This document shows positions 14,735 to 43,481 of a DNA stretch of 64,000 bases, piece after piece. The position numbers and the translations under genes are program-made. Within the stretch, counting starts at the first letter, position 1; every line of letters begins with the position of its first letter. The notes below the pieces were generated by a model that worked only from the letters and a program-made list of their open reading frames with translations, had not been told where the DNA came from and searched no databases. The stretch covers positions 128,001-192,000 of the IMG/VR virus record IMGVR_UViG_3300045988_147927, one strand, 5' to 3'. The DNA comes from a virus.

Positions 14735-15877
14735 TTGTTTTGGAAGAGTGTAGGTGTTGCTAGATGGTCTTATAATTACTTTTTATCAGAGAGTTATAGG
14801 GTATATCAAGAATGGTTAGAAGATAAAAGTAAACCAAAGCATATATCTGAGATGGAGGTTAGAAAGTATATTAATAATCATCTTAAAAAGACTACACATA
14901 CATGGCTTAAAGAGGTTGGAAGTAATGTAATGAAACAGGGTGTCAAAGATGCCAACATAGCATTACAGAATTTCTTTAAATATAACAAAGGTTATCCTAA
15001 GTTTAAATCTAAGAAAAGGTCTAAGCCTAGTTTCTATGTTAATTACGAAAGTTTAAAACGTACACCAAATGGATTTCGTGGTGAGAGAATTGGTTATGTT
15101 AAAACTAAGGAATCACTACCTATGATTGGTAAGAATCAAAAATACCGTAGACCTAGAATTAGTTTTGATGGTAGATTTTGGTACTTATCTGTTAGCTTTG
15201 AGGTTAAGAGGTTAGATGTTAAATTATCAGATACTAAGTTAGGTATAGACTTGGGCATTAAAGAGTTAGCTGTTGTTTCTAGTCAGAGTGGTACTGATAT
15301 TAAGAAGTATCATAATATAAATAAAACTTGTGAAGTAAAGAGATTAGAGAAAAAGCTAAAACGTGAGCAACGTAAGTTTTCACGTAAGATTCTTGTACAT
15401 AAAGGTCTTTGTAATAATAAAACTAATCATAAAAAAGAACTAGAATTATGTAAAAACATTCAAAAACAAAAGAGTATAATTCAGAGATTATATAGACGAT
15501 TGTTAAATATCAGGACTAATTATTTACATCAAACAACTACTGAGATAGTGAAAACCAAACCATCTCATATAGTTTTAGAAGATTTGAATGTTAGTGGAAT
15601 GATGAAAAATCGTCATTTATCAAAGTCTATTATGTGTCAAAAATGGTATGAGTTTAGGAGACAGATAGAGTATAAAGCTGAATTATATGGTATTGAAGTT
15701 GTATTAGCAGATAGATTTTATCCTAGTTCTAAGACTTGTAGTTGTTGTGGTAATGTCAAGAGAGACTTAAAATTATCTGACAGAGTATATAGATGTGATT
15801 GTTGTGGTAATGTTGTTGATAGAGATGTCAATGCATCAATCAATTTAGCTAATTATAATATAGAAAGTGTCAAATAA
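14735..15877 (+). CDS. tnpB: TnpB-like RNA-guided nuclease (IS200/IS605 OrfB family)
   Basis: RuvC residues in GIDLGIKE, VLEDLNV, DRDVNASINL. Zn ribbon CSCCGN...CDCCGN. Homology to the second TnpB extends upstream to about 14660 (SVKIRLLPTKEQ), but the RBS-proximal TTG at 14651 is followed by an in-frame TAA. Confidence 0.85.
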   Translation: MFWKSVGVARWSYNYFLSESYRVYQEWLEDKSKPKHISEMEVRKYINNHLKKTTHTWLKEVGSNVMKQGVKDANIALQNFFKYNKGYPKFKSKKRSKPSFYVNYESLKRTPNGFRGERIGYVKTKESLPMIGKNQKYRRPRISFDGRFWYLSVSFEVKRLDVKLSDTKLGIDLGIKELAVVSSQSGTDIKKYHNINKTCEVKRLEKKLKREQRKFSRKILVHKGLCNNKTNHKKELELCKNIQKQKSIIQRLYRRLLNIRTNYLHQTTTEIVKTKPSHIVLEDLNVSGMMKNRHLSKSIMCQKWYEFRRQIEYKAELYGIEVVLADRFYPSSKTCSCCGNVKRDLKLSDRVYRCDCCGNVVDRDVNASINLANYNIESVK

Positions 15878-16063
15878 AAGATACTCTATATATGTACCTA
15901 TCGTTACTAGGGAATTTAAGCCTTTGGGGTGTTATAACAAACAAGAGTAGTTGAAGTTATTTTAACAACGAAATTGAACGTAATGATTAAGGAAGATATA
16001 TCGTGAGGTATATCAAAGTGTAAGTGTGTGATATTTATAATATGTACATATTTATCGTAACGG
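15878..16063 (+). ncRNA. candidate omega-RNA scaffold / intron 3' segment
   Basis: Position immediately 3' of tnpB up to the exon-2 boundary; local hairpins (gatata..tatatc, gttg..caac). Inference from TnpB biology. Confidence 0.4.
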
Positions 16064-31810: not shown

Positions 31811-32908
31811 TTGAATAAAAGTTTTAAAGTTAGGATTTATCCTACAAAAGAGCAATGTGTTCTTTTAGAAAAGACCTTTGGTGCAAACAGGTTTGTTTAT
31901 AATTACTTTCTCAACTTAAAAAGTAAGTTGTATGAGTTTTATAAAATAAATCTTAGTTACAACAATTCTTCTAAAGTGCTAACAGAATTAAAGAAAACTA
32001 AAACTTGGCTTAAAGAGGTTGATAGTAAATCTTTAATTCAAACACTTAGGGATTTAGATAGAGCATATCAAAACTTTTTTAGTGGTAGAGGTAAATACCC
32101 TAATTTTAAAAAGAAACAAGATAAAAACTCTTATCGTACTAATCAAAGCATTAAATTAGTCAATTCTTTTATTTCTATTCCAAAGGTAGGTCTACTTAGA
32201 TATAAAGATAAGTGTAAATTTGATGATAAACATATTCTTAAAATTTATAATGTAACAATATCTAAGACATCTAGTGGAAAATATTATGCTAGTATATCAG
32301 CTGAGGTCTATATACCTAATTTTGAGAAAACCAATCAAAGTTGTGGTATAGACTTAGGTTTAAAAGATTTTGCAATTTTAGATACTGGTGAAAAGATAAA
32401 GAATCCTAGAATATTAAAGCATCTTGAAGTTAAGTATAGAAAATTAGCTAAAGCTGTTTCAAGAAAAGTTAAAGGTTCAGCTAATTATCAAAAAGCTAAG
32501 TTAAAGTTAGCAAGGTTTCATGAGAAAGTTACGAATATTCGTAAAGATTTTCTTCATAAATTATCTACTAACTTAGTAAAAACTTATGATATTATTTGTG
32601 TTGAGACTCTTAAAGTTAAAAATATGATGAAAAATCATACATTAGCAAAATCATTTCAAGATGTAGCACATTCTGAGTTTATAAGACAGTTAGAATATAA
32701 AGCTAAGTGGTATGGTAAAACTATCTCTAAAATAGATAGATTTTATCCATCAAGTCAGGTATGTTCTAATTGTGGATATAAAAACAAAGATGTTAAAAAT
32801 CTTAGTATTCGTGAGTGGATTTGTCCAGAGTGTGGGGTTCATCATGATAGAGATATCAATGCATCAATTAATATTTTGAATGAGGGATTACGACTTATAG
32901 AAGTGTAA
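31811..32908 (+). CDS. tnpB: TnpB-like RNA-guided nuclease (IS200/IS605 OrfB family)
   Basis: TTG start after aaagaggtgag. [11 protein letters not shown]-terminus. RuvC residues in [25 protein letters not shown]. Zn ribbon CSNCGY...CPECGV. Confidence 0.85.
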
Positions 32909-33033: not shown

Positions 33034-34860
33034 ATGTCAGAGGGGATAGATATTTATATTATGGGTAATTTAGAGAAACAATACTTATCAGATACGAGTG
33101 TTTTTGATAGGTCGCTGTATGAGAGTTATGAGCCTGATACAAAATTTGATGGTTCAAATAATGCAGTGTTGCGTATTATCCGAGGACCATTAGCAGAGTG
33201 GGATAAGTTAAATCGTAATGGTAGGTTATATTCTGAGAAGTTGTGGGATAGGGTGTTAGAAACACCGTATGTTAAAGAACAGCTCATGTATAATACACTT
33301 TTTGGTGAGGCTAATCACCCAGTAGATAGAATGGAAGTAGATTTTGAGAGGGTTTCTCATAGAATTGCTAAGATGTGGAAAGTGCCACAATCAAATCAAA
33401 TTTATGGTGAGATTCATATCTTGGATACTCCTTTTGGTCGGATTATCAATACATTGTATGAAGCTGGTGGTGTTATTGGATATTCATCAAGGGCTGGTGG
33501 TGCTTTACATCAACGTAAGGATTATATTGAAGTAGATGAAAATCAATATAATTTTGTTACATTTGATGCTGTTCCATTCCCGTCTGTACAATCTGCTAGA
33601 CCTAGTGATTTTGTAACAGAGGGTGCTGAAATTCAAAAACACGCTTTAACAAAAGATGTTCATAATGCTCTTTTTAAGATTATTAAAGAGTGTGATGAAA
33701 AAGACTTTAATAATATTAAGTCTTTTATAAATAGCATTGAGGGTTATGATTTAACACCTGAAAAGTTATTACTTGAAAGTGTTGAAAATATAACTTTTAA
33801 TAATGGTGATGAAGAAGTTATTGTCCGAGACACTATTGAGGACAATAAGGAAGAATCGCTTGTAGATACTTTACAAAGTACTTTACAGTCAGTTAAGGCT
33901 CAAAAACAATCTTTAGAGAAAGAGAATAGAGGTTTAAAAGATAGCTTAAATAATGCTTTAAATAAAATCTCAACTGTTCTACAGGATGCTAAAGATAAAG
34001 AGGTTGCAACACAAGATGAGATTTCAAATCTAAAAGACACTATTGCAAGAAAAGAAGTTAAAATCAATGAGTTGCAAGAAGAGATTGATATGTTACAAGA
34101 TGAGCTTGATGGTTTACAAACTGTCGAGGAGGCTTGTAAGGCTTTGAAGTATCAAAACTCTACTTTACTTAAAGAGGGTGTAGAGGATAACAATAGGGAA
34201 TTAGAATCGAAGTTATCTGTTAAAGAGGAAGAAAACAAATCTTTGTTGAAAGATAATAAAAATCTTTCAAAAGAAAAAGAAGAGTTACATTCTGAATTAA
34301 AAGAGGCTTATGGTGAGATTGCTGATACTGTTAAAGATATTAATAGTAAGGATGCTATTATTAAGGCACAACAAGATACTATTAATTCTTTAAAGAGTGA
34401 TGTTAAGTCTACACAAGAAGAATTAGATAAGGTAGATGAAGATTATCAAAGTGCTTTAGATAGACGTGATAATCAAATTGAGCAGTATGAGGAAAGAATT
34501 AAAGAGTTAGAAGATAAGATTAGGGAATTGAGTTCAGAGGTAGAAGATATCGATGAGTCATATTCAAAATCAAAATCATACACTAAATCTTTAAAAAATG
34601 ACTTAATTTCAGTTATTGCTGGTAATTATGGTTTAACAAATGAAAGTGTTAAAGCTAAGTTACCTGTAGGGTTTGGTAAGTCAGAAATTTATACTGTGTG
34701 TGAATCGATGAGTCGCAATAGTAGTAAAAATTTAATAAGCAATTCTATTGTAGATACTCAAATTGTTAATGAATCAACTAAAAACAGGGTTACTGATATT
34801 CATTCTAACAATAGGGGTAGTAGATTAAGTGAAATAATCTCTACAAATAGAAGAGGTTAG
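33034..34860 (+). CDS. prohead protease (T4 gp21/U9-like) fused to a coiled-coil scaffolding region
   Basis: LNRNGRLYSEKLW and LFGEANHP resemble gp21 motifs. About 300 aa of heptad-rich E/K/L sequence follows. Start is ambiguous (33034 or 33061). Confidence 0.6.
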   Translation: MSEGIDIYIMGNLEKQYLSDTSVFDRSLYESYEPDTKFDGSNNAVLRIIRGPLAEWDKLNRNGRLYSEKLWDRVLETPYVKEQLMYNTLFGEANHPVDRMEVDFERVSHRIAKMWKVPQSNQIYGEIHILDTPFGRIINTLYEAGGVIGYSSRAGGALHQRKDYIEVDENQYNFVTFDAVPFPSVQSARPSDFVTEGAEIQKHALTKDVHNALFKIIKECDEKDFNNIKSFINSIEGYDLTPEKLLLESVENITFNNGDEEVIVRDTIEDNKEESLVDTLQSTLQSVKAQKQSLEKENRGLKDSLNNALNKISTVLQDAKDKEVATQDEISNLKDTIARKEVKINELQEEIDMLQDELDGLQTVEEACKALKYQNSTLLKEGVEDNNRELESKLSVKEEENKSLLKDNKNLSKEKEELHSELKEAYGEIADTVKDINSKDAIIKAQQDTINSLKSDVKSTQEELDKVDEDYQSALDRRDNQIEQYEERIKELEDKIRELSSEVEDIDESYSKSKSYTKSLKNDLISVIAGNYGLTNESVKAKLPVGFGKSEIYTVCESMSRNSSKNLISNSIVDTQIVNESTKNRVTDIHSNNRGSRLSEIISTNRRG

Positions 34861-34926
34861 AGTGATATATTAGTTTTTAGTTGATAGTCTATATGTTAAA
34901 TAAAAATTTTATGGGGAAAGTTATTA

Positions 34927-35724
34927 ATGAAAACTAATATTTACGAACAATATCGTCCATTATTGGAATCTTGGAAAGGTTATACTGATGTTGTAAAACA
35001 GCACGTAGATGGCTATTCTGATGTAGAAGCTACACAACTATCTATGTTGCTTGAAAATACTAAATCTGAATTGGAAATGACAAAAGGTCGCATGATGAAT
35101 GGTACAGCTATTCATGAAGGCACTGATATTTCTATGGTTAATACATTTACATCTAATGTATTTGATATTATCACAGCTGTCATGCCAAATTTGATTGCGA
35201 ATGATATCGTCAGTGTTCAACCTCTTGACCGTAGGAATGGACAAGTATTCTTCTTGAAATTCACTTATGGTAATAATAAAGGTGCTATTAAAGCTGGTAC
35301 TGATATGATTTCTTCTCAACGTGGTTTCGTTGGTGGTGATTATAGTGGTGAACACGTAAGTGGTGAATCATTGACAATCACTTCTAATGCAGTATCTCAA
35401 AAAGTATTGCATACTCCAATTAAACCTGGTACATTCCGTTTGACTTCACCTGATAAAATCGGCGATGAATTATTGGATGTTCCTAATGCAGATGGTATCA
35501 CAGGTACTATTACAGATACTGCACCTACTGGTTTGGGTGCTGGTACTGTAAACTATGTTACTGGTGAAATTACATTGACTGGTGTAACAGTTGCACATCT
35601 AGAAGCTGATTTTGACTATGACCAAAATAGTTTCGATGCTCCTGTAGACCAAGTTGATGTACGTGTGGTTTCTGAGCCTGTAGTTGCTCGTCCACGTAAA
35701 TTAAAATCCGTATATATGTTCGAT
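34927..35724 (+). CDS. major capsid protein, exon 1
   Basis: Follows the protease-scaffold gene. The exon end cgaT can pair with gtcg 36 nt into the intron (G.U at the splice site). Confidence 0.7.
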
Positions 35725-36921
35725 AAAACTTGTGCATAATAGTTTTCATTTATGCAATGTCGCCTTATCATAGAAATATGGTGAGTGATAACTCTACGAA
35801 TTGCTGGAAGTTCCTAAAGTATAACACACTACAACGTAACTCGAAAGGGTAAGCGTGAAAGTTGCGAAAGCAGAAAAAAGTTGTTATAATACCCTATGAT
35901 GAAATAAAAGGTATTTTAGTATTATACTAAAATATTTCTAAGGGGGATAATAAGAATGGATAATCAGCAGTCAGTGGTTACATATATTGAATGTCCTTAT
36001 TGTGGTAAGAAATTAAAATTTTTAAATGCAACTCATCTTAAACGTCATGGCAAAACAGTTAGTGATGTTAAATCAGAGTTTCCAAATCAATCTTTAGCCT
36101 CTCAGTCTTATAGAGATAGGCAGAGAGAAGATACAAGAGATAGGTGGGAAGAGGAAGGTTATAGAGATAGAGTTTCTGCTACATTAAAAATTACACAAAA
36201 TAGGGAAGATATAAAAGAGAAAATAGCTAATGGGAATAGAGTTAAATGGTCTAATGAAGATTATAAAAGGAGGGTATCTAAGAAGATAAGAGATACTCAA
36301 AATAGACCAGATAAGAAATTACATATGTCTAAGTTATCTTCAATGGCTTTAACAGATGGAACTATAGGTGATATATGGAAGCATGTTACTTATGGTGATA
36401 AAGTGTTGTGTTTGAGGAGTTCATTAGAGTTAAAGACTTTTAATTACTTAGTTGAATTAAATATTCCTTTTGAGTATGAAAGTATTAGATATGAGTATAA
36501 GATTGATGGTTTTAGTTTATTTCATGTAATTGATTTTTATTTATCTCAATATAATTTAATTATAGAGGTTAAACCTAAGTATAAATTTAAAGAAGGGTTT
36601 ATTAAAAATCACAATGAAGAGTATCGAAAAATCATCGCAAAACGTGATGGTGGTATTGCTCTCGGGTATAACTATATTTTCATAACAGAGGATAATTTAG
36701 ACAGTAAAGACTCTTTTTATAAAGCTATTAGTAAGTATATGTAGTCAAAGATTCAACGACTAACCCAGACATGGGTGTAGGTTATTATGAAAGATAGCCG
36801 AAGTGTAGAGTACCTAAGTTACAATAGGTAATATGGTAAAGATATAGTCTGTTCTCATGTGAAAGCATGAGTTTTGAATTGTTAAACTTTCATTAAATAC
36901 AATTCAATTTGATACAATTAG
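35725..36921 (+). mobile_element. group I intron 1 with endonuclease ORF
   Basis: Blocks aattgctggaag, cctaaag, actacaacgtaa, gggtaagcgtgaaagttgcgaaagcagaaaa, gatgaaataaaag, then ORF, then attcaacgacta, gatatagtct + gtgaaagcatgag hairpin. Ends in G. Confidence 0.75.
35956..36744 (+). CDS. intron-encoded PD-(D/E)XK-type homing endonuclease with N-terminal Zn-finger
   Basis: RBS aggggga. CPYCGKKLKFLNATHLKRHG. C-terminal core ...VIDFYL...LIIEVKPK. Confidence 0.6.
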   Translation: MDNQQSVVTYIECPYCGKKLKFLNATHLKRHGKTVSDVKSEFPNQSLASQSYRDRQREDTRDRWEEEGYRDRVSATLKITQNREDIKEKIANGNRVKWSNEDYKRRVSKKIRDTQNRPDKKLHMSKLSSMALTDGTIGDIWKHVTYGDKVLCLRSSLELKTFNYLVELNIPFEYESIRYEYKIDGFSLFHVIDFYLSQYNLIIEVKPKYKFKEGFIKNHNEEYRKIIAKRDGGIALGYNYIFITEDNLDSKDSFYKAISKYM

Positions 36922-37019
36922 GTTGCATACGATTTAAAAATGTCATTCGGCTTAGATATGGATACAGTTATCCTAAAAGCTACGAGTGGTGAAATTGGTT
37001 ACGAAATTGACAATGAGAT
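36922..37019 (+). CDS. major capsid protein, exon 2 (33 codons)
   Basis: VAYDLKMSFGLDMDTVILKATSGEIGYEIDNE-. The exon end gagaT pairs with gtctc in the intron. Confidence 0.6.
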
Positions 37020-38202
37020 TAACGTAGATAATGCTATTATGTTGTTAGTAGCTTAAATAATACATAGTCTCCGTACATAGTGATATGTGCGAAAAATAAT
37101 CTATTTAATTGCTGGAAAGTCCTAAAGCTAACTAAACTACAACGTAATCATGAAATATGGGTAAGCGTGAGAGTTGCTAAAGCAGAAAAAATTAGTTAGA
37201 TGACATAAGGTGAAATAAAAGCTATAATATGATATAATTATAGTCCTAAGTGTTGTAATAATGGATAATCAGCCGCTAAGTCCTTAATAGGGAAAAGTTC
37301 AACGACTATCCGAAAGCAACAAAAGTTGTGAGTAGATAATGAGAATTATCAAAAGGAGTACGGCTCTAGTGAGTGGGTGAGAATCCCTTAAATGGAAATG
37401 GTAGATGTGTACAAAGGATGGTTTAAAATTACATATAGAATGTCCTATATGTCATAAGAAGTATAAGATGATATCAAATAATCATCTTGTTAAAAAACAT
37501 AATATTACATTAGAAGAGTTTAGAGATATCTATAAAGGTTATCCTACAGAGAGTGAGTATTTACAAAAGGTTAGAGTGGATGTTGGATTAGCAATAGGCT
37601 CTAAAGAGAGTGTTAAGTCTTTTAGAAGTGCTAAAGCTAAGAGACAGCATGAGAGTGGAAATCTCAATCCGTCTAAAACACTTAATTATTTGTGGGAAAA
37701 TAAAAAAAGATTGGATGCGTGAAAGACAGCATATAGGTAATAGTACTGAAGCTGAGTTTAAACGTAAATCAGAAGTTTCTAGACGTTTATGGTCTTGTCC
37801 TGAGTGGGTTAATTCTCGTAGGGATAGGAATGTGAGATGTGAATTAAATGGTTATGTTTTATATGTTAGAAGTTCTTATGAAAAGGTAGCTTGCCAGTTC
37901 TTAGATTCTTTGGGTGTTAAATTTGAGTATGAAACAAAAGTATTCAAATATTACTATGATGGAAGATTTAGAAATTATATTGTTGATTTATATCTTCCTT
38001 TACATGATGTTTATTTAGAGGTAAAACCTAAAGACCTAGAATCAGATGATAAAAATAAAGCTAAAATACAGTCTGTAATTGATAGTGGTAATATAATTAC
38101 TTATGTTGATGAGGATTGGATATGTTCTATAGATGATTTTAAACATCATTTGAGTAAGTACATAAAGATATAGTCTGCTCTATGGTGAAAGTCATAGAAG
38201 GG
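37020..38202 (+). mobile_element. group I intron 2 with frameshifted endonuclease ORF
   Basis: Same conserved blocks as intron 1, but the ORF sits after the gttcaacgacta block. Ends ...agaagG. Confidence 0.7.
37405..38173 (+). pseudogene. PD-(D/E)XK-type homing endonuclease, split by a frameshift in an A7 run
   Basis: ORFs 37405-37722 and 37610-38173 together parallel the intron-1 enzyme (CPICHKKYKMISNNHLVKKH ... VDLYL...YLEVKPK). The frames switch at aaaaaaa, 37702-37708. Confidence 0.6.
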
Positions 38203-38596
38203 TATAATGGAAACGATTATACTCGTAACAAAAGGTATGCAAGACCTTTTAAAAATTGCTGGTAGCCAATCTACTTGGAATAAACTTCCTGAGTATAAAG
38301 GTCAAGACGTTAAAACACATGAAGCTACATTGTTTAATGCTATCAATGATGCGTCCAATACAATTCTTGGTAACACTAAACGCTATGAAGCTACATTTAT
38401 TATCTGTGGTAAAAATGCCGCTACATACATTGAATCCTTGAACACAAATATCGGTCAAGTACGTGAAATCTTCAAACGTGTGTCTACAAATGGTATCGTT
38501 GGTGGTCCACACTTGGTAGGTATCTTGGATGAAAAATATAAAGTATATAAAAATCCATACTACCCTGATAATGAAATCTTGGTAGGTGCTAAGGGT
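38203..38596 (+). CDS. major capsid protein, exon 3
   Basis: Corresponds to track ORF 38207-38617. The exon end gggT pairs with gccc in intron 3. Confidence 0.65.
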
Positions 38597-38991
38597 GAAC
38601 ATATTAATGTTGCTTAATGATAAACATTTTGCCCTTGTAAAACCCTGTGAATTGCTGGGACGTGCTAAAGACTGTTATACCAAAGTGTAAAAATTAACAG
38701 TATGAGTTGTGGGTTAGCACTCCACAACGATGAAATGTACAATCAGCAGCCTTATATATTTAAAGATAGAATATATGGGGTTCATCGACTATCGAAAACA
38801 GAGATGTAAAGTAAGACTGGTAACTCGGTCAAGGTTATTATAGGTTACATCTTTTAAGTGAGTAGAGTAGGAATTAAAGTTCCGAAGTGCAGGGAGTTAT
38901 TACTGATAACCTAAAGGTAATAACTATGATATAGTCAGTGCTAACAAGAAATATGTTAGTTATTTAATTTAATAGTCAGTTAAAATGTTAG
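38597..38991 (+). ncRNA. group I intron 3 (ORF-less)
   Basis: aattgctggga, gctaaag, gttcatcgacta, gatatagtca blocks. Ends in G before gaaatgttc. Confidence 0.65.
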
Positions 38992-39177
38992 GAAATGTTC
39001 ATTGAAGCTGGCTATATTTATGCTCCATACTTGCCTTTATTCGCAAGTCAATTATTGGTTGATGCAGACTTCAAAGCACAACGTGGGTTCTGTACACTAT
39101 ACGCCAAAAAAGCAGTAAATAAATATATGTATCATCGTTTGACTTTGGTAGATAACAAACAAGTAGCCGCTAACTAA
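38992..39177 (+). CDS. major capsid protein, exon 4
   Basis: EMFIEAGYIYAPYLPLFASQ..., a capsid-like C-terminus. The four exons sum to 798+98+394+186 = 1476 nt, in frame. Confidence 0.65.
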   Translation, partial: EMFIEAGYIYAPYLPLFASQLLVDADFKAQRGFCTLYAKKAVNKYMYHRLTLVDNKQVAAN

Positions 39178-39255
39178 TTAAGGTTAAAATAGCTACATAA
39201 TATTCAGTAATATGTATTGAATATACTTTACAAAACTAAATAATATATCCAATTA

Positions 39256-39292
39256 ATAGAGATGAGTTTTATACTCATCTCTATTTTTATTT
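39256..39292 (+). terminator. rho-independent terminator
   Basis: 12-bp stem atagagatgagt / actcatctctat followed by a T-run. Confidence 0.75.
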
Positions 39293-39320
39293 GAATATCT
39301 TTGTGTTTATGTTGTATAAT
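39291..39320 (+). promoter_or_regulatory. sigma70-like promoter
   Basis: TTGAAT - 18 nt - TATAAT. Confidence 0.5.
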
Positions 39321-39366
39321 TTAAATGTACATAGATGTAAGATATTGTAAAATAATGTAAGGTTAG

Positions 39367-40143
39367 TTGGAGGGTATATTGATAGTGAAAGATATTTTAG
39401 CTAAAGATGGTATATTGTGTGGTATTCCTAGTGATAGGAGTTGTAATTTGATTGTATTGTTCTCTGGTGGATTTGATTCTACTGCATTATTACATATGGC
39501 AGTTAATACTAAGAAGAAATATAATACTATAAAAACAGTATATGCTTTGTATGTTAAAAGTAATCTATTAGATGAAGGGAAAGTTAAGTTAGAGGAAAAT
39601 CATGTAAAAAAGTTTATTTCTTATATTAATCAAGATGAGGAGATTGTAAAGTTAGTTACTTATGAGAGTTCATTTAGTGATTTAGAAGAGTATGCTTATA
39701 GTGAAAATTCATATGACTTAATATTTATTAATGCTATTAATTCAGTAGTACATATGATGGGTGGTGCTGATGTTAATATAGTATTGAATGGCTCATTAGA
39801 TGGAGATTCAAGGGTATATCATCTACCATATTATAAAAGTATGGTTGAAGGCTTCAATAAAGAGTATAGGGGTGTAGATGTGGTTATGATGTTCCCACTT
39901 ATGCAGATTAATAAACCTAGAATTATAGATTATTTACTCAACAACAATTTATATCAGTATTGTACTTGTTGTGAGAGTCCTAATAGTGATGTCTTTTGTA
40001 ATAGTTGTAAGGAGCATTTAAGGGCTTTATATGAATTATTACTTATCTATGATGTGTATGGTGATATTGAGCCTAAAGATGGAAATGAAGAGTTTGTTCG
40101 TGGTGAAATAAATAGGATACATGGGGTTGAGTCTGATGAGTGA
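39367..40143 (+). CDS. PP-loop ATPase, QueC-like
   Basis: VLFSGGFDSTALLH (SGGxDS). C-terminal Cys cluster YCTCCESPNSDVFCNSCKEHL. Alternative start GTG 39385. Confidence 0.55.
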   Translation: MEGILIVKDILAKDGILCGIPSDRSCNLIVLFSGGFDSTALLHMAVNTKKKYNTIKTVYALYVKSNLLDEGKVKLEENHVKKFISYINQDEEIVKLVTYESSFSDLEEYAYSENSYDLIFINAINSVVHMMGGADVNIVLNGSLDGDSRVYHLPYYKSMVEGFNKEYRGVDVVMMFPLMQINKPRIIDYLLNNNLYQYCTCCESPNSDVFCNSCKEHLRALYELLLIYDVYGDIEPKDGNEEFVRGEINRIHGVESDE

Positions 40144-42085
40144 TACTAACGATAAAAGACACTTATGGGGTGGTAAGGGTAAAAGAACATATAATAATGG
40201 TGTGATAGCTAAAAGATATTTTGAAGGTGAGCAACCTGAAGGATTTGTACTTGGAATGTTACCACGTACTGATGAGCAAAAGGCTAAAAGTAATGCTAAG
40301 AGGGTTAAAACTACAATAGAGAAGTACGGTGTTTCTAATGTAGCACAGTCTAAAGATGTGTATGAAAAGATGTTAGAGACAAATCTTAAAAAGTATGGTG
40401 TTGAGCATCCACAGACTCTTGAATCTCAAAAAGAAAAGGTAAAGAAAACAAATCTAGAGAGATATGGTACTACTAATGGTAAGGTGTTAAAACCAAAAGT
40501 AGATAAGCCTAAAAAAGAGAAAAAAGTAAAATTACCTAAAGTTAAAGATACTCGTAAAGGACATTACTATAATAATAGTATCATCACTAGAAAAATTAAA
40601 GAGGGTGATGTTATACCTGATGGGTTTGTTAGAGGAATGTTATTAAGTGATGAACTTAAAAAGAATAGGTCAGCTAAGGCTAAAGAGACATTTCTCAAAA
40701 AATATGGTGTAGATAACCCTGCTAAGTCTAAAGAGGTACTAGTTAAGATACAGAAAACAAATTTAGATAGGTATGGTGTTGAATGTTCTGCACAATCAGA
40801 AGTTGTTAAAGAAAAGATAAAAGCTACAAATCTTAAAAAATACGGTGTTGAGTATTCTTTTCAAGCAGAGGAAGTTAAGGATAAAATCAAAGCTACAAGT
40901 CTAGAGAGGTATGGTGTAGAAAATCCATCTAAGTCAGAAGTTATTAAGAGTAAGATTGTTGAATCTAATCGTAAGAATTTAGGTGTAGATTATCCTATGC
41001 AGTCTAAGGATGTGATGGATAAGTCTAGGGCAACTTCTTTTGAAAAGTATGGAACTGAGTATCCTAATCAGTCAGAAATTGTTAAATCTAAGATTGACGC
41101 TAGTACTTTAGAGCATTATGGTGTTAATCGTGCTTGTAAGTTAGATGAATTTAAGCAAAAAATCGTAGATACTAATAGAGAACGGTATGGTGTAGATTAT
41201 ACTTGTTTAATATATAGTGGTAAGTTAAAGGGTAATGACAGTAGTTACAACCGTTCTTTTGCTGAGTTATTAGATATTAATAACATTACATATGAGAGAG
41301 AGTTTTTATTACAAAAATATTCCTATGATTTTAAAGTAGGGAATACTTTGATTGAGATAGACCCCACTGCTACTCATAATACTTATTTCAGCCCTTATGG
41401 TGATAATAGAATTGATGTTAATTATCATAGAGATAAGACTAAGTTAGCTAAAGATAATGGATATAGTGTAATTCATATATTTGAATGGGATGATATTAAT
41501 AAAGTTATGCAATTATTGAAAAATAGGGTTACTGTATATGCTAGAAAATGTGAAGTAAGGATGGTTAGTGATGTAGATACTGGTAATTACTTAGATACAT
41601 ACCATTTACAGGGTACTTGTAGAGGACAGAAAATTAGATTAGGTCTATATTATGATAATCAATTAGTATCATTAATGACTTTTGGTAAATCACGTTTTAA
41701 TAAAAATTGTGAATATGAATTATTGAGATATTGTGCTAGTTACAATGTAGTAGGTGGTGCTGAGAAGTTATTTAAGTACTTTGTAGATAATTATAAACCT
41801 AGCAGCATTGTGTCATATTGTGATACATCAAAATTTAGTGGTAAGGTGTATGATACTTTGAGTTTTGAGTTTATTAAGACAAACAAACCTAGAAAGCATT
41901 GGTATAGTATGAAAGAGAAACGTCATATTACTGATGGATTATTATTAAGTCAGGGATATGATAGATTATTTAAAGAGAATCATGGTAAAGGCACTTCTAA
42001 TGAAGAGTTAATTCTTAGTAGAGGGTATTTACCTGTATATGATTGTGGTCAATCAACTTATATTTGGAGAAGTGATAATGTCTAG
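40136..42085 (+). CDS. free-standing homing-endonuclease-like protein with KYGV repeats
   Basis: YNNG..(x)..P(E/D)GFV.GM motifs x2. At least 8 repeats of about 32 aa (KYGV-NP-QS-EV-K-K-T). PD-(D/E)XK-like core YSYDFKVGNTLIEIDPTATHN. Conserved ~170-aa C-terminal domain. Confidence 0.5.
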   Translation: MSDTNDKRHLWGGKGKRTYNNGVIAKRYFEGEQPEGFVLGMLPRTDEQKAKSNAKRVKTTIEKYGVSNVAQSKDVYEKMLETNLKKYGVEHPQTLESQKEKVKKTNLERYGTTNGKVLKPKVDKPKKEKKVKLPKVKDTRKGHYYNNSIITRKIKEGDVIPDGFVRGMLLSDELKKNRSAKAKETFLKKYGVDNPAKSKEVLVKIQKTNLDRYGVECSAQSEVVKEKIKATNLKKYGVEYSFQAEEVKDKIKATSLERYGVENPSKSEVIKSKIVESNRKNLGVDYPMQSKDVMDKSRATSFEKYGTEYPNQSEIVKSKIDASTLEHYGVNRACKLDEFKQKIVDTNRERYGVDYTCLIYSGKLKGNDSSYNRSFAELLDINNITYEREFLLQKYSYDFKVGNTLIEIDPTATHNTYFSPYGDNRIDVNYHRDKTKLAKDNGYSVIHIFEWDDINKVMQLLKNRVTVYARKCEVRMVSDVDTGNYLDTYHLQGTCRGQKIRLGLYYDNQLVSLMTFGKSRFNKNCEYELLRYCASYNVVGGAEKLFKYFVDNYKPSSIVSYCDTSKFSGKVYDTLSFEFIKTNKPRKHWYSMKEKRHITDGLLLSQGYDRLFKENHGKGTSNEELILSRGYLPVYDCGQSTYIWRSDNV

Positions 42086-43481
42086 TAGGGTTAAAAAGAA
42101 ATATTATCATAATGGCATTGTTAATAAAATGTATGAGGAGGGTAAACAGCCAGATGGTTTTGTACTAGGAATGTTACCACGTACAAAAGAAAAACAAGAT
42201 GCTATTAATAAAAAGAGAGAAGAGACTACATTAAAGAAGTATGGTGTTTCTCATGTGTCGCATTTAAGTGATGTTAAGTCTAAAAAGAAAAAGTCTTTAC
42301 TAGAGCATTATGGGGTAGATAATCCATCTAAGTCTAAGGAGATACAAAATAAGAAAAGAGATATCTTTATTAAGAAGTATGGTGTAGATAACCCTATGAA
42401 GTCTGAAGAGATTAAACAGAAGTTTAGGGATAACTATAACACTAAATATGGTGTAGATAATCCTTTTCAATTAGATGTTGTTAAAGATAAAATCAAAGAT
42501 ACTAGTAGGGAAAATTTAGGTGTAGATTATCCTACTCAATGTCAAGAGGTTAGAGATAAGGTTAGGAATACCTTTATGGAACGATATGGTGTACCGTATA
42601 CATTTATGTTGTCTAAAGAGTGGATAGAGGCTAATGATAGTAAACCTAACAGAGATTTTGCTGAGTTGTTAGATACTAACAATATTAAGTATGAACGTGA
42701 GTTTAGGTGTGGTAAGTATTCATATGATTTTAAAATAGGGAATACACTTATAGAGATAAACCCTACAGCTACACACAATACTCATTTTAGTCCTTATGGT
42801 GATAATAGAATTGATTCAAATTATCACAGAGATAAATCTAAGTTAGCTAATGATAATGATTATAGTGTAATACATATATTTGACTGGGATGATAAGAATA
42901 AGATTATCAATCTTCTTAGAGATAGGGATATAGTATATGCTAGAAAATGTGATATAAGATTAGTTGATAGTGTAGAGTGTAATCAATATCTTATGACATA
43001 CCATTTACAGGGTAAGTGTAATAATCAAACAATTAGATTAGGGTTATATTATGATAATCAATTAGTATCATTAATGACTTTTGGTAAGCCTAGATATAAC
43101 AGTAGGTATGAGTATGAGTTGTTGAGATACTGTGCTAGTCATAATGTAATAGGTGGTGCTGAGAAGTTATTTAAGTATTTTATTAATACCTATAAACCTA
43201 GCAGCATTGTGTCATATTGTGATACATCAAAATTTAGTGGTAAAGCCTATGACACTTTGGGGTTTAATAGGGTTAATGATAATAAACCATCTTGCCATTG
43301 GTATAGTGTAGAAGAAGATAAACATATAACTGATAATTTGTTGCGTATGCAAGGGTATGATAGACTTTTCAAAGAAAATCATGGTAAAGGGACTTCTAAT
43401 GAAGAATTAATTCTAGCTAGGGGATATTTACCAGTATATGATTGTGGACAGTCTACTTATGTTTATATTAATAAAAAATAA
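42078..43481 (+). CDS. paralog of the upstream homing-endonuclease-like protein
   Basis: ATGTCTAG start/stop overlap. Same architecture with fewer KYGV repeats. Long identical nucleotide stretches in the C-terminal domain. Confidence 0.5.
   Translation: MSSRVKKKYYHNGIVNKMYEEGKQPDGFVLGMLPRTKEKQDAINKKREETTLKKYGVSHVSHLSDVKSKKKKSLLEHYGVDNPSKSKEIQNKKRDIFIKKYGVDNPMKSEEIKQKFRDNYNTKYGVDNPFQLDVVKDKIKDTSRENLGVDYPTQCQEVRDKVRNTFMERYGVPYTFMLSKEWIEANDSKPNRDFAELLDTNNIKYEREFRCGKYSYDFKIGNTLIEINPTATHNTHFSPYGDNRIDSNYHRDKSKLANDNDYSVIHIFDWDDKNKIINLLRDRDIVYARKCDIRLVDSVECNQYLMTYHLQGKCNNQTIRLGLYYDNQLVSLMTFGKPRYNSRYEYELLRYCASHNVIGGAEKLFKYFINTYKPSSIVSYCDTSKFSGKAYDTLGFNRVNDNKPSCHWYSVEEDKHITDNLLRMQGYDRLFKENHGKGTSNEELILARGYLPVYDCGQSTYVYINKK

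What the first reader, a model, noticed from the sequence alone, without database searches (positions are those of the whole stretch)
34927..39177. Major capsid gene fragmented into four exons by three related group I introns
The ORF pieces 34927-35739, a 33-codon piece near 36922, 38207-38617 and 38995-39177 are separated by segments carrying group I-type conserved blocks. I placed each 5' splice site where the exon end pairs with the aligned internal guide (cgaT/gtcg, gagaT/gtctc, gggT/gccc; G.U at the splice site). I placed each 3' site after a terminal G. This gives exons of 798+98+394+186 = 1476 nt, one uninterrupted reading frame of 491 codons plus stop ending ...GAKG|EMFIEAGYIYAPYLPL.... 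That frame consistency is an internal check. Three introns in one capsid gene is an unusually high density.
Basis: partly seen in the sequence, partly recalled or inferred. Interest (0 to 1): 0.75.

Follow-up and report, generated by a model that had tools for sequence, protein, structure and literature searches.

The report
Capsid gene split by three introns
The major capsid gene of this uncultured T4-like phage really is interrupted by three self-splicing-type (group I) introns, one splice site needing correction; related phages carry from none to five such introns at eight sites in the same gene, but intron-rich phage genes are already known.

Summary
Confirmed, with one correction. Window 34927-39177 encodes a gp23-type major capsid protein (Pfam PF07068, E=1e-54) in four exons separated by three group I introns. 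These are I1 35725-36921, I2 37020-38235 and I3 38597-38991.

Intron-less alleles in related IMG/VR contigs (96% aa identity) fix the junctions. The 33 nt in dispute are the intron's P9.1 hairpin and tail. The true ORF is 1443 nt, 480 codons rather than 491.

Each intron has these features:
- U at -1 and a terminal G.
- A contiguous guide sequence that pairs with both exon flanks (P10|P1).
- P3-P9 with the P3/P7 pseudoknot, and P7.1/P7.2 (subgroup IA type, like Twort and T4 td).

Rfam RF00028 scores the window copies below threshold (22-33 bits). ORF-less orthologues of I1 and I2 score 49.5-52.3 bits. Covariation is strong, with 35 pairs compensated.

I1 carries an intact zinc-finger/PD-(D/E)xK homing endonuclease. 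I2 carries a frameshifted homologue. I3 carries none.

Relatives show eight insertion sites and 0-5 introns per allele. Precedents exist: Twort orf142, AR9, SP-15 MCP and crAss-like MCP. This is a new member of a known kind. Splicing itself is untested.

The parts
34927..35724 (+). MCP exon 1 (798 nt, codons 1-266). It ends ...TTCGAT, and the last U pairs with G of the I1 guide.
   Evidence: Aligns to nt 1-798 of the intron-less alleles L008-L010. Pfam Gp23 match on the spliced protein.
35725..36921 (+). Intron 1 (1197 nt), group I, IA-type. Guide UAUGCAAU|GUCG 35751-35762 (core UGCAAUGUCG at 35753-35762); P2 35764-35785; P3 35791-35798 with 36804-36811; P4 35802-35807 with 35964-35969; P5a 35820-35826 with 35882-35888; P6 35975-35981 with 36741-36747; P7 36757-36762 with 36845-36851; P7.1 36763-36776; P7.2 36781-36798; P8 36812-36837; P9 36854-36871; P9.1 36874-36907; terminal G 36921.
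   Evidence: Coordinates. Guide scan: the top-scoring position of 1181. The ORF-less orthologue L040 (81% and 92% identical to the two halves) scores 49.5 bits on RF00028, E=1.1e-11. The window 3' half scores 31.2 bits. Covariation.
35956..36744 (+). Intact 262-aa homing-endonuclease ORF inside intron 1. It has an N-terminal C2H2-like zinc finger, a helical linker and a C-terminal PD-(D/E)xK nuclease (D193, E204, K206). The AUG overlaps P5'. The body fills the P6 loop. The stop codon lies in the P6 3' strand.
   Evidence: PHROG endonuclease and resolvase families. Invariant residues. AF2 model with pLDDT 83.6. Best PDB fold match is the I-Bth0305I catalytic domain, then Vsr. 25% identical to the SP-15 intron endonuclease, E=3e-18.
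36922..37019 (+). MCP exon 2 (98 nt; codons 267-299, the last one split after its second base).
   Evidence: Aligns to nt 799-896 of the intron-less alleles. No start codon or ribosome-binding site of its own is needed under splicing.
37020..38235 (+). Intron 2 (1216 nt), group I, IA-type. Guide CAUA|GUCUC 37063-37071; P2 37072-37091; P3 37099-37106 with 37396-37406; P4 37110-37115 with 37269-37274; P5a 37128-37135 with 37192-37199; P6 37281-37292; P7 37303-37308 with 38171-38177; P7.1 37316-37329; P7.2 37336-37349; P8 37407-37412 with 38158-38163 (encloses the ORF); P9 38180-38197; P9.1 38202-38222; terminal G 38235.
   Evidence: Coordinates. The 3' end is fixed by the intron-less alleles and by homologue alignment. 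The ORF-less orthologues L050 and L055 (94% identical) pass the RF00028 gathering score with 52.3 and 50.9 bits. Window pieces score 22.2 and 22.8 bits.
37405..38173 (+). Homing-endonuclease gene of intron 2, broken by a +1 frameshift. The two pieces are 37405-37722 and 37610-38173. There is an extra A in the run 37702-37708 (A7 here, A6 in relatives). The start codon straddles P3'/P8. The stop codon UAG is part of P7'.
   Evidence: 13 of 15 relatives have an intact 255-aa ORF at this place. The single-base insertion was located by alignment. The intact version is 25% identical to the I1 endonuclease, E=1e-12.
38236..38596 (+). MCP exon 3 (361 nt; it completes codon 299 and runs to codon 419).
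   Evidence: The region 38203-38235 is the P9.1 hairpin plus tail, which is conserved in introns at other sites.
38597..38991 (+). Intron 3 (395 nt, no ORF), group I, IA-type, without P2. Guide AACAUUUU|GCCCUUG 38623-38637; P3 38643-38649 with 38888-38894; P4 38653-38658 with 38743-38748; P5 38662-38665 with 38737-38740; P6 38750-38780; P7 38786-38791 with 38932-38938; P8 38896-38924; P9 38941-38959; terminal G 38991.
   Evidence: RF00028 scores 30.3 bits, E=5.8e-6, and 33 bits in the whole-window scan; both are below the gathering score of 50. Guide scan: unique top position of 379. Relatives carry the same intron with an ~830-nt endonuclease ORF inserted in P6.
38992..39177 (+). MCP exon 4 (186 nt including the stop; codons 420-480).
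   Evidence: The junction reads ...GAKG|EMFIEAGY with no gap against homologues.

Best explanation
The region is one late gene for a gp23-type (T4-like, HK97-fold) major capsid protein of an uncultured, ~31% G+C phage. Three mobile group I introns of the phage IA type interrupt it.

Proposed mechanism:
1. The gene is transcribed as one precursor.
2. Each intron folds into the P1-P10 ribozyme.
3. A free guanosine attacks after the U of the U.G pair in P1.
4. The freed 5' exon, held on the internal guide next to the 3' exon (P10), attacks after the terminal G.
5. The exons are ligated to give a 1443-nt mRNA and a 480-aa capsid protein.

The introns are selfish elements that spread by homing. I1 encodes an intact zinc-finger/PD-(D/E)xK endonuclease, which presumably cuts intron-less capsid alleles of co-infecting relatives near nt 798. 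Repair then copies the intron together with flanking exon bases. I2 carries a frameshifted copy of a homologous enzyme. I3 has lost its endonuclease gene.

Shown here: the exon boundaries, the RNA fold and its covariation, presence/absence polymorphism, purifying selection on the spliced frame, and the endonuclease fold. Inferred: actual self-splicing, endonuclease activity and its target, and homing.
For: 1. The spliced ORF matches Pfam Gp23 at 186.9 bits (cut-off 24.4) and phrog_138 major head protein. A gp21-like prohead protease lies immediately upstream.

2. Intron-less alleles at 96% aa identity align exactly across all three junctions. Among 32 complete relatives, 0 to 5 introns occupy eight sites.

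3. dN/dS of the spliced frame against intron-less alleles is 0.095, with dS 0.34.

4. Every intron at these sites, in all loci, starts after T and ends in G.

5. A contiguous P10|P1 guide is the best-scoring position of the whole intron for I1 and I3, and among the top 3 of 1200 for I2. The same holds at five other sites and in SP-15.

6. RNAalifold on an unguided MAFFT alignment of 11 ORF-less family members recovers P2, P3, P4, P5, P5a, P9 and P9.1. Cells are 94.8% paired, against 33-39% when the partner is slid. 35 pairs have double changes and 0 of 500 shuffles reach that. P3 is 100% paired, with 5 of 6 pairs compensated.

7. RF00028 scores: L050 52.3, L055 50.9, L040 49.5, L029 42.6, window I3 30-33 and I1 3' half 31.2 bits. 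There are no hits elsewhere in the window.

8. The P7-P7.1-GUAG-P7.2-GAAR-P3' layout and the core blocks CAACGACUA / GAUAUAGUCUG match the experimentally proven Twort introns.

9. Exon flanks co-vary with intron presence through synonymous changes that create the P1/P10 pairs.

10. The endonuclease has a conserved D...ExK motif. Its model has pLDDT 83.6. Its best fold match is homing endonuclease I-Bth0305I.
Against: - There are no RNA or protein data, so splicing is inferred.
- The window's own copies all score below Rfam's gathering score (33, 31.2, 22.8 and 22.2 bits against 50).
- The first two Rfam runs listed no group I hit at all.
- P7 is invariant across the family, so covariation says nothing about it.
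- The I2 endonuclease gene is frameshifted and I3 has none, so two of the three introns cannot home by themselves now.
- The fold match of the endonuclease is borderline in E-value (1.6e-3).
- The window comes from a metagenome assembly. Related repeats could in principle cause a chimeric combination of introns.
Confidence: 0.9

Rival explanations
1. Intron 2 ends at 38202, exon 3 starts at 38203, and the protein has 491 residues with an extra IMETIILVTKG. A weaker variant is that 38202 is used as an alternative 3' splice site.
For: The frame stays open. Position 38202 is a G. A 3-bp P10 is possible.
Against: Intron-less alleles and all four compared homologues lack these 33 nt. 38202-38222 forms the P9.1 hairpin, which is conserved in introns at other sites with unrelated 3' exons. 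P10 is better at 38236, with 4 bp against 3 bp.
Confidence: 0.03
2. The inserts are mobile-element insertions that are not removed, so this capsid gene is dead. The source would be a defective phage or a decaying prophage remnant.
For: There are no expression data. Many selfish genes surround the region, including TnpB-like ORFs and free-standing homing endonucleases.
Against: All four exons stay open and in register. dN/dS is 0.095. The same inserts recur in dozens of independent contigs of up to 213 kb. The inserts have a complete ribozyme core with guides matched to their own flanks. The flanks carry the synonymous changes that splicing needs.
Confidence: 0.03
3. The introns are real, but the particular combination B1+C+D in this window is a metagenomic assembly chimera, created because related intron sequences act as repeats.
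For: The pattern B1+C+D is seen in no other complete locus. I1 and I2 share 76-86% identical stretches. One relative (L035) looks like a hybrid of two introns with an exon missing.
Against: Each of the three introns occurs with the same flanks in many contigs. Combinations that contain all three exist (L042 and L046). The shared stretches are short (29-175 nt) and diverged.
Confidence: 0.07
4. The inserts are removed at the protein level (inteins), or by another route such as group II splicing or translational bypass.
For: None beyond the fact that the gene is interrupted.
Against: Each insert has 10-57 stop codons in every frame, and I2 and I3 are not multiples of three in length. There is no reverse-transcriptase or maturase ORF and no group II Rfam hit. 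The inserts are far too long for bypassing.
Confidence: 0.01

Closest known systems
Group I intron in the major capsid gene of Bacillus phage SP-15 (KT624200, SP15_032 annotated as a join with endonuclease SP15_033 inside)
   Same: The host gene family is the same (gp23-type MCP, 31-36% aa identity over the two matched segments). The intron RNA family is the same, with the blocks AATTGCTGGGA, CTACAACGTAAG, GGATAATCAGCA, CCAACGACTATCGAAAG and GTGATATAGTCTGA. The endonuclease family is the same (25% identity, E=3e-18), and the ORF sits in the P8 loop as in I2. The insertion falls in the same conserved ...YxFDxAxD... hot spot.
   Different: SP-15 has one intron, not three. It is inserted at CDS nt 805|806, which is 7 nt downstream of I1 and 5 nt upstream of site B2, so it is a ninth site. 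DNA similarity outside the core blocks is low.
The three self-splicing introns of Staphylococcus phage Twort orf142 (AF132670; Landthaler & Shub 1999, PMC22036; the I2 ribozyme has been crystallised)
   Same: Three group I introns sit in one late structural gene. They are IA-type with P7.1/P7.2 and have near-identical J6/7-P7 and J8/7-P7' blocks and P9 GAAA hairpins.
   Different: The Twort gene is a 142-aa tail tube protein, not the capsid. The Twort introns are short (about 225-290 nt), ORF-less and score 64-101 bits on RF00028. The window introns have large P5 and P7.x extensions and endonuclease ORFs, and score 22-33 bits.
Multi-intron genes of other phages: AR9/PBS1 virion RNA polymerase gene g189 (join of 6 pieces), the crAss-like Zeta-group MCP (five fragments) and Jug phages (about 18 group I introns per genome)
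   Same: Essential, highly expressed phage genes carry several group I introns with homing endonucleases. The P7.2-extension block of I2 is 78-84% identical to AR9/PBS1 intron DNA (PMC7886860; PMC12880540).
   Different: The host genes or capsid families differ (the crAss MCP is not gp23-type), as do the endonuclease families (LAGLIDADG and HNH are reported there). None of these papers, as far as I read them, maps population-level presence or absence of introns at eight sites within one capsid gene.
Homing endonuclease I-Bth0305I (PDB 3r3p) and the Vsr / T7 endonuclease I-like PD-(D/E)xK nucleases
   Same: I-Bth0305I is the best structural match to the C-terminal domain of the I1 ORF (prob 1.0, TM 0.62 on the target, 23-25% identity). 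The ORF has a conserved acidic/lysine catalytic set and is encoded in a phage group I intron.
   Different: The E-value is borderline (1.6e-3). The window enzyme has a ROS/MucR-like zinc finger and a long helical linker that the crystallised catalytic domain lacks. Pfam Phage_endo_I and TnsA matches are below cut-off.

Membership tests
Group I intron (Rfam RF00028) | Conserved core helices P3-P8 in canonical order, with the P3/P7 pseudoknot | tested here: met
   Helices located in all three introns. P3, P4, P5 and P9 are supported by compensatory changes. Rfam alignments place the same helices. P7 is invariant, so it is uninformative.
Group I intron (Rfam RF00028) | 5' splice site after a U that forms a U.G pair with an internal guide sequence (P1); 3' exon pairs with the adjacent guide bases (P10) | tested here: met
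   I1 UAUGCAAU|GUCG, I2 CAUA|GUCUC, I3 AACAUUUU|GCCCUUG. These are the top or near-top scoring positions of each intron. Flanks co-vary with intron presence.
Group I intron (Rfam RF00028) | Terminal guanosine (omega-G) at the 3' end of the intron | tested here: met
   G at 36921, 38235 and 38991. The same holds in every copy at these sites in relatives.
Group I intron (Rfam RF00028) | Score at or above the curated gathering score (50 bits), window copies | tested here: not met
   33, 31.2, 22.8 and 22.2 bits. No hit at gathering. The low scores are probably due to large insertions (ORFs, P5 and P7.x extensions).
Group I intron (Rfam RF00028) | Score at or above the gathering score, ORF-less orthologues at the same sites | tested here: met
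   Site C (I2 type): L050 52.3 and L055 50.9 bits. Site B1 (I1 type): L040 49.5 bits, which is 0.5 below the cut-off. Control: the three Twort introns score 64-101 bits.
Group I intron (Rfam RF00028) | Guanosine-dependent self-splicing of the transcript | not testable with these tools
   Needs in-vitro transcription with GTP labelling, or RT-PCR.
Subgroup IA (phage T4 td / Twort type) | Extra hairpins P7.1 and P7.2 between P7 and the 3' strand of P3 | tested here: met
   I1 36763-36776 and 36781-36798; I2 37316-37329 and 37336-37349, plus an extra domain; I3 has an extended P7.1 and then P7.2. All three have the GUAG spacer seen in Twort. The definition of the subgroup is from memory (Michel & Westhof classification).
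Mobile (homing) intron | Precise presence/absence polymorphism among close relatives, and an endonuclease ORF in a peripheral loop | tested here: met
   0-5 introns at eight sites in 32 complete alleles. ORF-plus and ORF-minus versions of the same intron exist. Endonuclease cleavage of the empty site was not tested.
Gp23 major capsid protein (Pfam PF07068) | Whole-protein score above the curated cut-off, over most of the model | tested here: met
   186.9 bits against 24.4, residues 72-483 on profile positions 2-359 of 376 (using the 491-aa version). tblastn finds 2204 phage records annotated as major capsid or head protein.
PD-(D/E)xK homing endonucleases (I-Bth0305I / Vsr / T7 endonuclease I-like) | Restriction-endonuclease-like fold with a conserved D...(D/E)xK catalytic set | tested here: inconclusive
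   D193, E204 and K206 are invariant in 8 sequences. Foldseek top hits are 3r3p and Vsr with prob 1.0 but E=1.6e-3 to 1.4e-2. Pfam PF05367 is below cut-off. There is no PDB hit by sequence.

The most novel reading that the evidence does not exclude
In this clade of roughly 200-kb T4-like phages, the capsid gene is an arena for one radiating family of IA introns and their zinc-finger/PD-(D/E)xK endonucleases. The family has colonised at least eight target sites within 1 kb, five of them within 111 nt of the most conserved capsid segment. This gives 0-5 introns per allele, in 20 combinations among 32 alleles, and micro-exons of 20-24 nt. The most novel reading is that this load is not neutral. 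The endonucleases would cut the capsid gene of co-infecting intron-less relatives and act as weapons in phage-phage competition, as shown for the PhiPA3 intron endonuclease (PMC11620839). Intron content would then be under frequency-dependent selection.
Probability: 0.3. Interest if true: 0.7.

Novelty: new member of a known kind. Interest (0 to 1): 0.5.

Why it matters
The capsid protein is the most abundantly made protein of a phage. Three ribozymes therefore have to excise efficiently from one late transcript for the virus to be viable.

The window is one allele of a natural series. Relatives have the same gene with none to five introns, with intact, broken or missing endonuclease genes, and with synonymous exon changes that track intron presence.

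That series is ready-made material for several studies:
- how homing endonucleases acquire new targets inside one gene;
- how introns gain and lose their endonuclease genes;
- whether intron load affects competition between co-infecting phages.

On the practical side, gene callers split such capsid genes into fragments. Capsid-based phage classification of metagenomes will then miss or mis-size them. The case also shows that an open reading frame across proposed junctions does not validate splice sites.

Tried and rejected
- **Rfam, first runs.** Rfam at gathering score on the window found no group I hit. An E-value run on 34500-39600 also listed none. Later runs on a smaller stretch and on the whole window did list hits. 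I cannot explain that difference. I relied on ORF-less orthologues and on a Twort positive control.
- **BLAST against phage records.** Megablast of the region against 50,697 phage records found only short intron-core matches to AR9/PBS1 and a Kayvirus. blastn of intron 3 found nothing.
- **PDB sequence search** with the I1 ORF found nothing meaningful.
- **tRNA scan** found none.
- **First hand-derived pairings, revised.** I first paired P3 of I2 as CUAUUU/AAAUGG. After comparing introns at sites A1 and B3, I revised it to AUCUA(UUU)/(AAA..)UAGAU, abutting P8. I first paired P5 of I1 with a nearby AGGG. After finding the conserved GGAU-AA-UCAGC block, I moved it to GGAU just before P4'.
- **Alternative removal routes rejected.** Inteins, group II introns and translational bypass were rejected on stop codons in all frames, insert lengths and the absence of reverse-transcriptase ORFs.
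- **Not done.** I did not build a custom covariance model. The motif scan and the whole-window Rfam scan already showed no further family members in the window. I did not try to identify the host.

Full report
**What is in the sequence**

These are 34927-35739, 36940-37056, 38207-38617 and 38995-39177, all on the + strand. A 262-aa ORF (35956-36744) and two overlapping ORFs (37405-37722, 37610-38173) lie in the gaps.

That product matches Pfam Gp23 (PF07068) at 186.9 bits (E=1e-54) and PHROG 138 'major head protein'. A gp21-like prohead protease (Peptidase_S77) is encoded immediately upstream at 33034-34860. The gene is the major capsid gene.

**Exon boundaries**

tblastn against GenBank phages found only distant uninterrupted homologues: Bacillus phage HSE3 at 38%, Listeria phage LIS04 at 34% and Streptococcus phage GXN1 at 31%. 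In a MAFFT alignment, junctions 1 and 3 are gap-free.

A scan of IMG/VR with the corrected protein returned 52 related loci. Three of them (L008, L009, L010) hold an uninterrupted 1443-nt gene that is 96% identical in protein. Their DNA aligns to the window as 34927-35724 / 36922-37019 / 38236-38596 / 38992-39177, at 87-97% identity.

Intron 2 therefore ends at G38235, and exon 3 starts at 38236. The ORF has 480 codons.

**Are the inserts group I introns?**

Rfam at its gathering score found no group I intron in the window. This is not general blindness of the model. The three experimentally proven introns of Twort orf142 score 64-101 bits.

The window introns are much larger than the model because of ORFs and peripheral extensions. 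Relatives provide ORF-less versions of the same introns at the same sites:
- The site-C (I2-type) introns of L050 and L055 are 94% identical to I2 and pass the gathering score, at 52.3 and 50.9 bits.
- The site-B1 (I1-type) intron of L040 scores 49.5 bits, E=1.1e-11.
- I3 itself scores 30-33 bits, E=5.8e-6 in a small search space.

In a relaxed scan of all 64 kb on both strands, the only Intron_gpI hits lie inside the three introns. The ordered core blocks AATTGCTG, AATCAGC, AACGACTA and GATATAGTC occur exactly three times, once per intron.

**Secondary structure**

I located P1-P10 in each intron; coordinates are in the parts list.

I made an unguided MAFFT alignment of 11 ORF-less family members. 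It included ORF-deleted I1 and I2 and introns from sites A1, B0, B1, B2, B3 and C. I gave it to RNAalifold. It returned P2, P3, P4, P5, P5a, a further P5 helix, P7.x hairpins, P9 and P9.1. Of 60 pairs, 35 have compensatory changes.

Counting on that structure plus P7 gave these results:
- 94.8% of cells are paired, against 33-39% when the 3' partners are slid by 1-3 columns.
- No shuffle out of 500 reached the observed values.
- The long-range P3 helix is 100% paired, and 5 of its 6 pairs change on both sides.

The structure was derived from the same alignment, which favours it. P7 is invariant and therefore uninformative.

Hairpins P7.1 and P7.2 lie between P7 and the 3' strand of P3, separated by GUAG as in Twort. 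This places the introns in subgroup IA; the subgroup definition is from memory.

**Splice-site pairing**

An automated scan asked, for every position of each intron, how many consecutive pairs it forms with the 5' exon end (P1) and, on the adjacent bases, with the 3' exon start (P10).

| Intron | Guide (P10\|P1) | P10 + P1 (bp) | Rank in the intron |
|---|---|---|---|
| I1 | UAUGCAAU\|GUCG | 8 + 4 | unique best of 1181 positions |
| I3 | AACAUUUU\|GCCCUUG | 8 + 7 | unique best of 379 |
| I2 | CAUA\|GUCUC | 4 + 5 | among the top 3 of 1200 |

The same test finds a matching guide at five further insertion sites in relatives and in SP-15. The guide therefore co-varies with the exon context across nine sites. 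All copies at sites B1, B2, C and D start after T and end in G.

**Population picture**

Mapping the coding sequence onto the 52 loci shows eight insertion sites:

| Site | Position (after CDS nt) | In the window |
|---|---|---|
| A1 | 269/270 | no |
| A2 | 290 | no |
| B0 | 785 | no |
| B1 | 798 | I1 |
| B2 | 810 | no |
| B3 | 848 | no |
| C | 896 | I2 |
| D | 1257 | I3 |

Among the 32 loci that cover the whole gene, by my signature scan:
- 7 have no intron, 3 have one, 7 have two, 7 have three, 7 have four and 1 has five (L051).
- There are 20 occupancy patterns, and the window's (B1+C+D) is unique.
- The scan missed one A2 copy in L029, so these counts are approximate.

Some alleles have micro-exons of 20-24 nt between adjacent introns.

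Intron-bearing alleles always have the flanks TTCGAT|GTTGCA (15/15), GAGAT|TATGCA (17/17) and AAGGGT|GAAATG (14/14). Empty sites mostly have the synonymous variants TTTGAC|, GAGAT|AATGCA or GAAAT|CATGCA, and AAAGGT|. This fits selection for P1/P10 pairing, co-conversion during homing, or both.

The spliced frame is under purifying selection, with dN/dS 0.095 at dS 0.34 against intron-less alleles. All frames of all three inserts are full of stop codons, which excludes inteins.

**The intron ORFs**

The I1 ORF is intact (262 aa). Its AUG overlaps P5', its body fills the P6 loop, and its stop codon lies in the 3' strand of P6.

The I2 ORF sits in the P8 loop. Its stop codon is the UAG of P7'. 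It is intact (255 aa) in 13 of 15 relatives. In the window it has one extra A in the run 37702-37708, which shifts the frame. This is either a decaying gene or a homopolymer error.

I3 has no ORF. Relatives carry the same intron with a 276-304-aa ORF inserted in P6.

All these proteins share one architecture: a ROS/MucR-like zinc finger followed by a nuclease domain. The nuclease domain gives sub-threshold Pfam hits to Phage_endo_I and TnsA. The I1 and site-C enzymes are 25% identical.

The big protein database holds only eight relatives of the I1 enzyme, one of them named 'endonuclease I'. E175, D193, E204 and K206 are invariant. An AlphaFold2 model (pLDDT 83.6) matches the catalytic domain of homing endonuclease I-Bth0305I best, then Vsr and TnsA. 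Probabilities are 0.9-1.0 but E-values only 1.6e-3 to 2.5e-2. I read this as a PD-(D/E)xK homing endonuclease. Family membership beyond the fold is not settled.

**Comparison with what is known**

- **SP-15.** The closest described case is Bacillus phage SP-15. Its gp23-type capsid gene is annotated as a join with an endonuclease inside. I find it is the same intron family and the same endonuclease family. It is inserted 7 nt downstream of the I1 site, with an 8+8-bp guide.
- **Twort orf142.** This gene, now annotated as a tail tube protein, has three introns of the same subgroup (PMC22036 as cited in PMC6669764).
- **AR9 g189.** It is annotated as six joined pieces, and its intron DNA shares a block with I2.
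- **crAss-like phages.** A Zeta-group phage has its capsid gene in five fragments (PMC7886860).
- **Jug phages.** They average 18.5 group I introns per genome, with splicing seen in metatranscriptomes (PMC12880540).
- **Cluster J mycobacteriophages.** They splice an intron from their capsid gene (PMC3706429).
- **T4 relatives.** A 2010 review of mobile elements in T4-related phages mentions no intron in gene 23 (PMC2988022).

Three introns in a capsid gene is therefore uncommon but not new in kind.

**Verdict**

The finding is real. It is a new member of a known kind. Its added value lies in the allele series found in relatives, not in the window alone. Splicing, endonuclease activity and homing remain inferences.

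Noticed in passing
window 14735-15994: A TnpB-like 'transposase' ORF (phrog_506, E=3e-101) at 14735-15877 is followed 43 nt downstream by a RAGATH-18 RNA motif at 15921-15994 (55.7 bits, above gathering). The same motif occurs in relatives L050 425-485 and L051 3313-3373. The RNA may be the guide/right-end RNA of the IS605-type element; this was not tested.
   Followed up: partly
window 31811-32908: A second TnpB-like ORF (phrog_506, E=5e-134) sits just upstream of the prohead protease gene, inside the head-morphogenesis module.
   Followed up: no
window 40121-43481: Two tandem, slightly overlapping free-standing homing-endonuclease genes lie at 40121-42085 and 42039-43481. The first matches Pfam DUF7487 (4 stretches), and both match PHROG homing/HNH endonuclease families. 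They lie downstream of a QueC-like gene (39367-40143). The DUF7487 profile also gives weak hits to the nuclease domain of an intron endonuclease (L022) and is annotated on relative P0007.
   Followed up: partly
window 37702-37708: A run of seven A's, where 5 aligned relatives have six, frameshifts the intron-2 endonuclease gene. It could be real gene decay or a homopolymer sequencing or assembly error.
   Followed up: yes
L051 6001-11132 (IMGVR_UViG_3300008134_000001): A relative carries five introns in the same capsid gene (sites A2, B0, B3, C, D). Other relatives have micro-exons of 20 nt (between A1 and A2: L029, L047) and 24 nt (between B0 and B2: L022, L034, L036, L049, L050).
   Followed up: partly
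L035 6051-7343: A 1293-nt insert starts like a site-B3 intron and ends like a site-C intron, and exon nt 849-896 (16 codons) is missing. It could be recombination between two related introns that deleted the exon between them, or a misassembly.
   Followed up: no
window 35719-35730, 37014-37025 / 38230-38241, 38591-38602 and the same sites in L008-L059: Synonymous exon bases next to each insertion site differ consistently between intron-bearing and empty alleles, for example TTCGAT| against TTTGAC| at site B1. This fits P1/P10 requirements or co-conversion tracts.
   Followed up: yes
window 34500-39600: An Rfam E-value scan of this 5.1-kb stretch listed no Intron_gpI hit. Scans of a 451-nt stretch and of the whole 64-kb window did. 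This behaviour of the tool is unexplained.
   Followed up: no
window 1-64000: All 48 ORFs of 150 aa or more, except four that overlap longer + strand ORFs, lie on the + strand. No tRNA genes were found. G+C is 30.9%. The nearest GenBank phages share under 40% capsid identity, so the phage belongs to a lineage without cultured representatives in that collection.
   Followed up: partly
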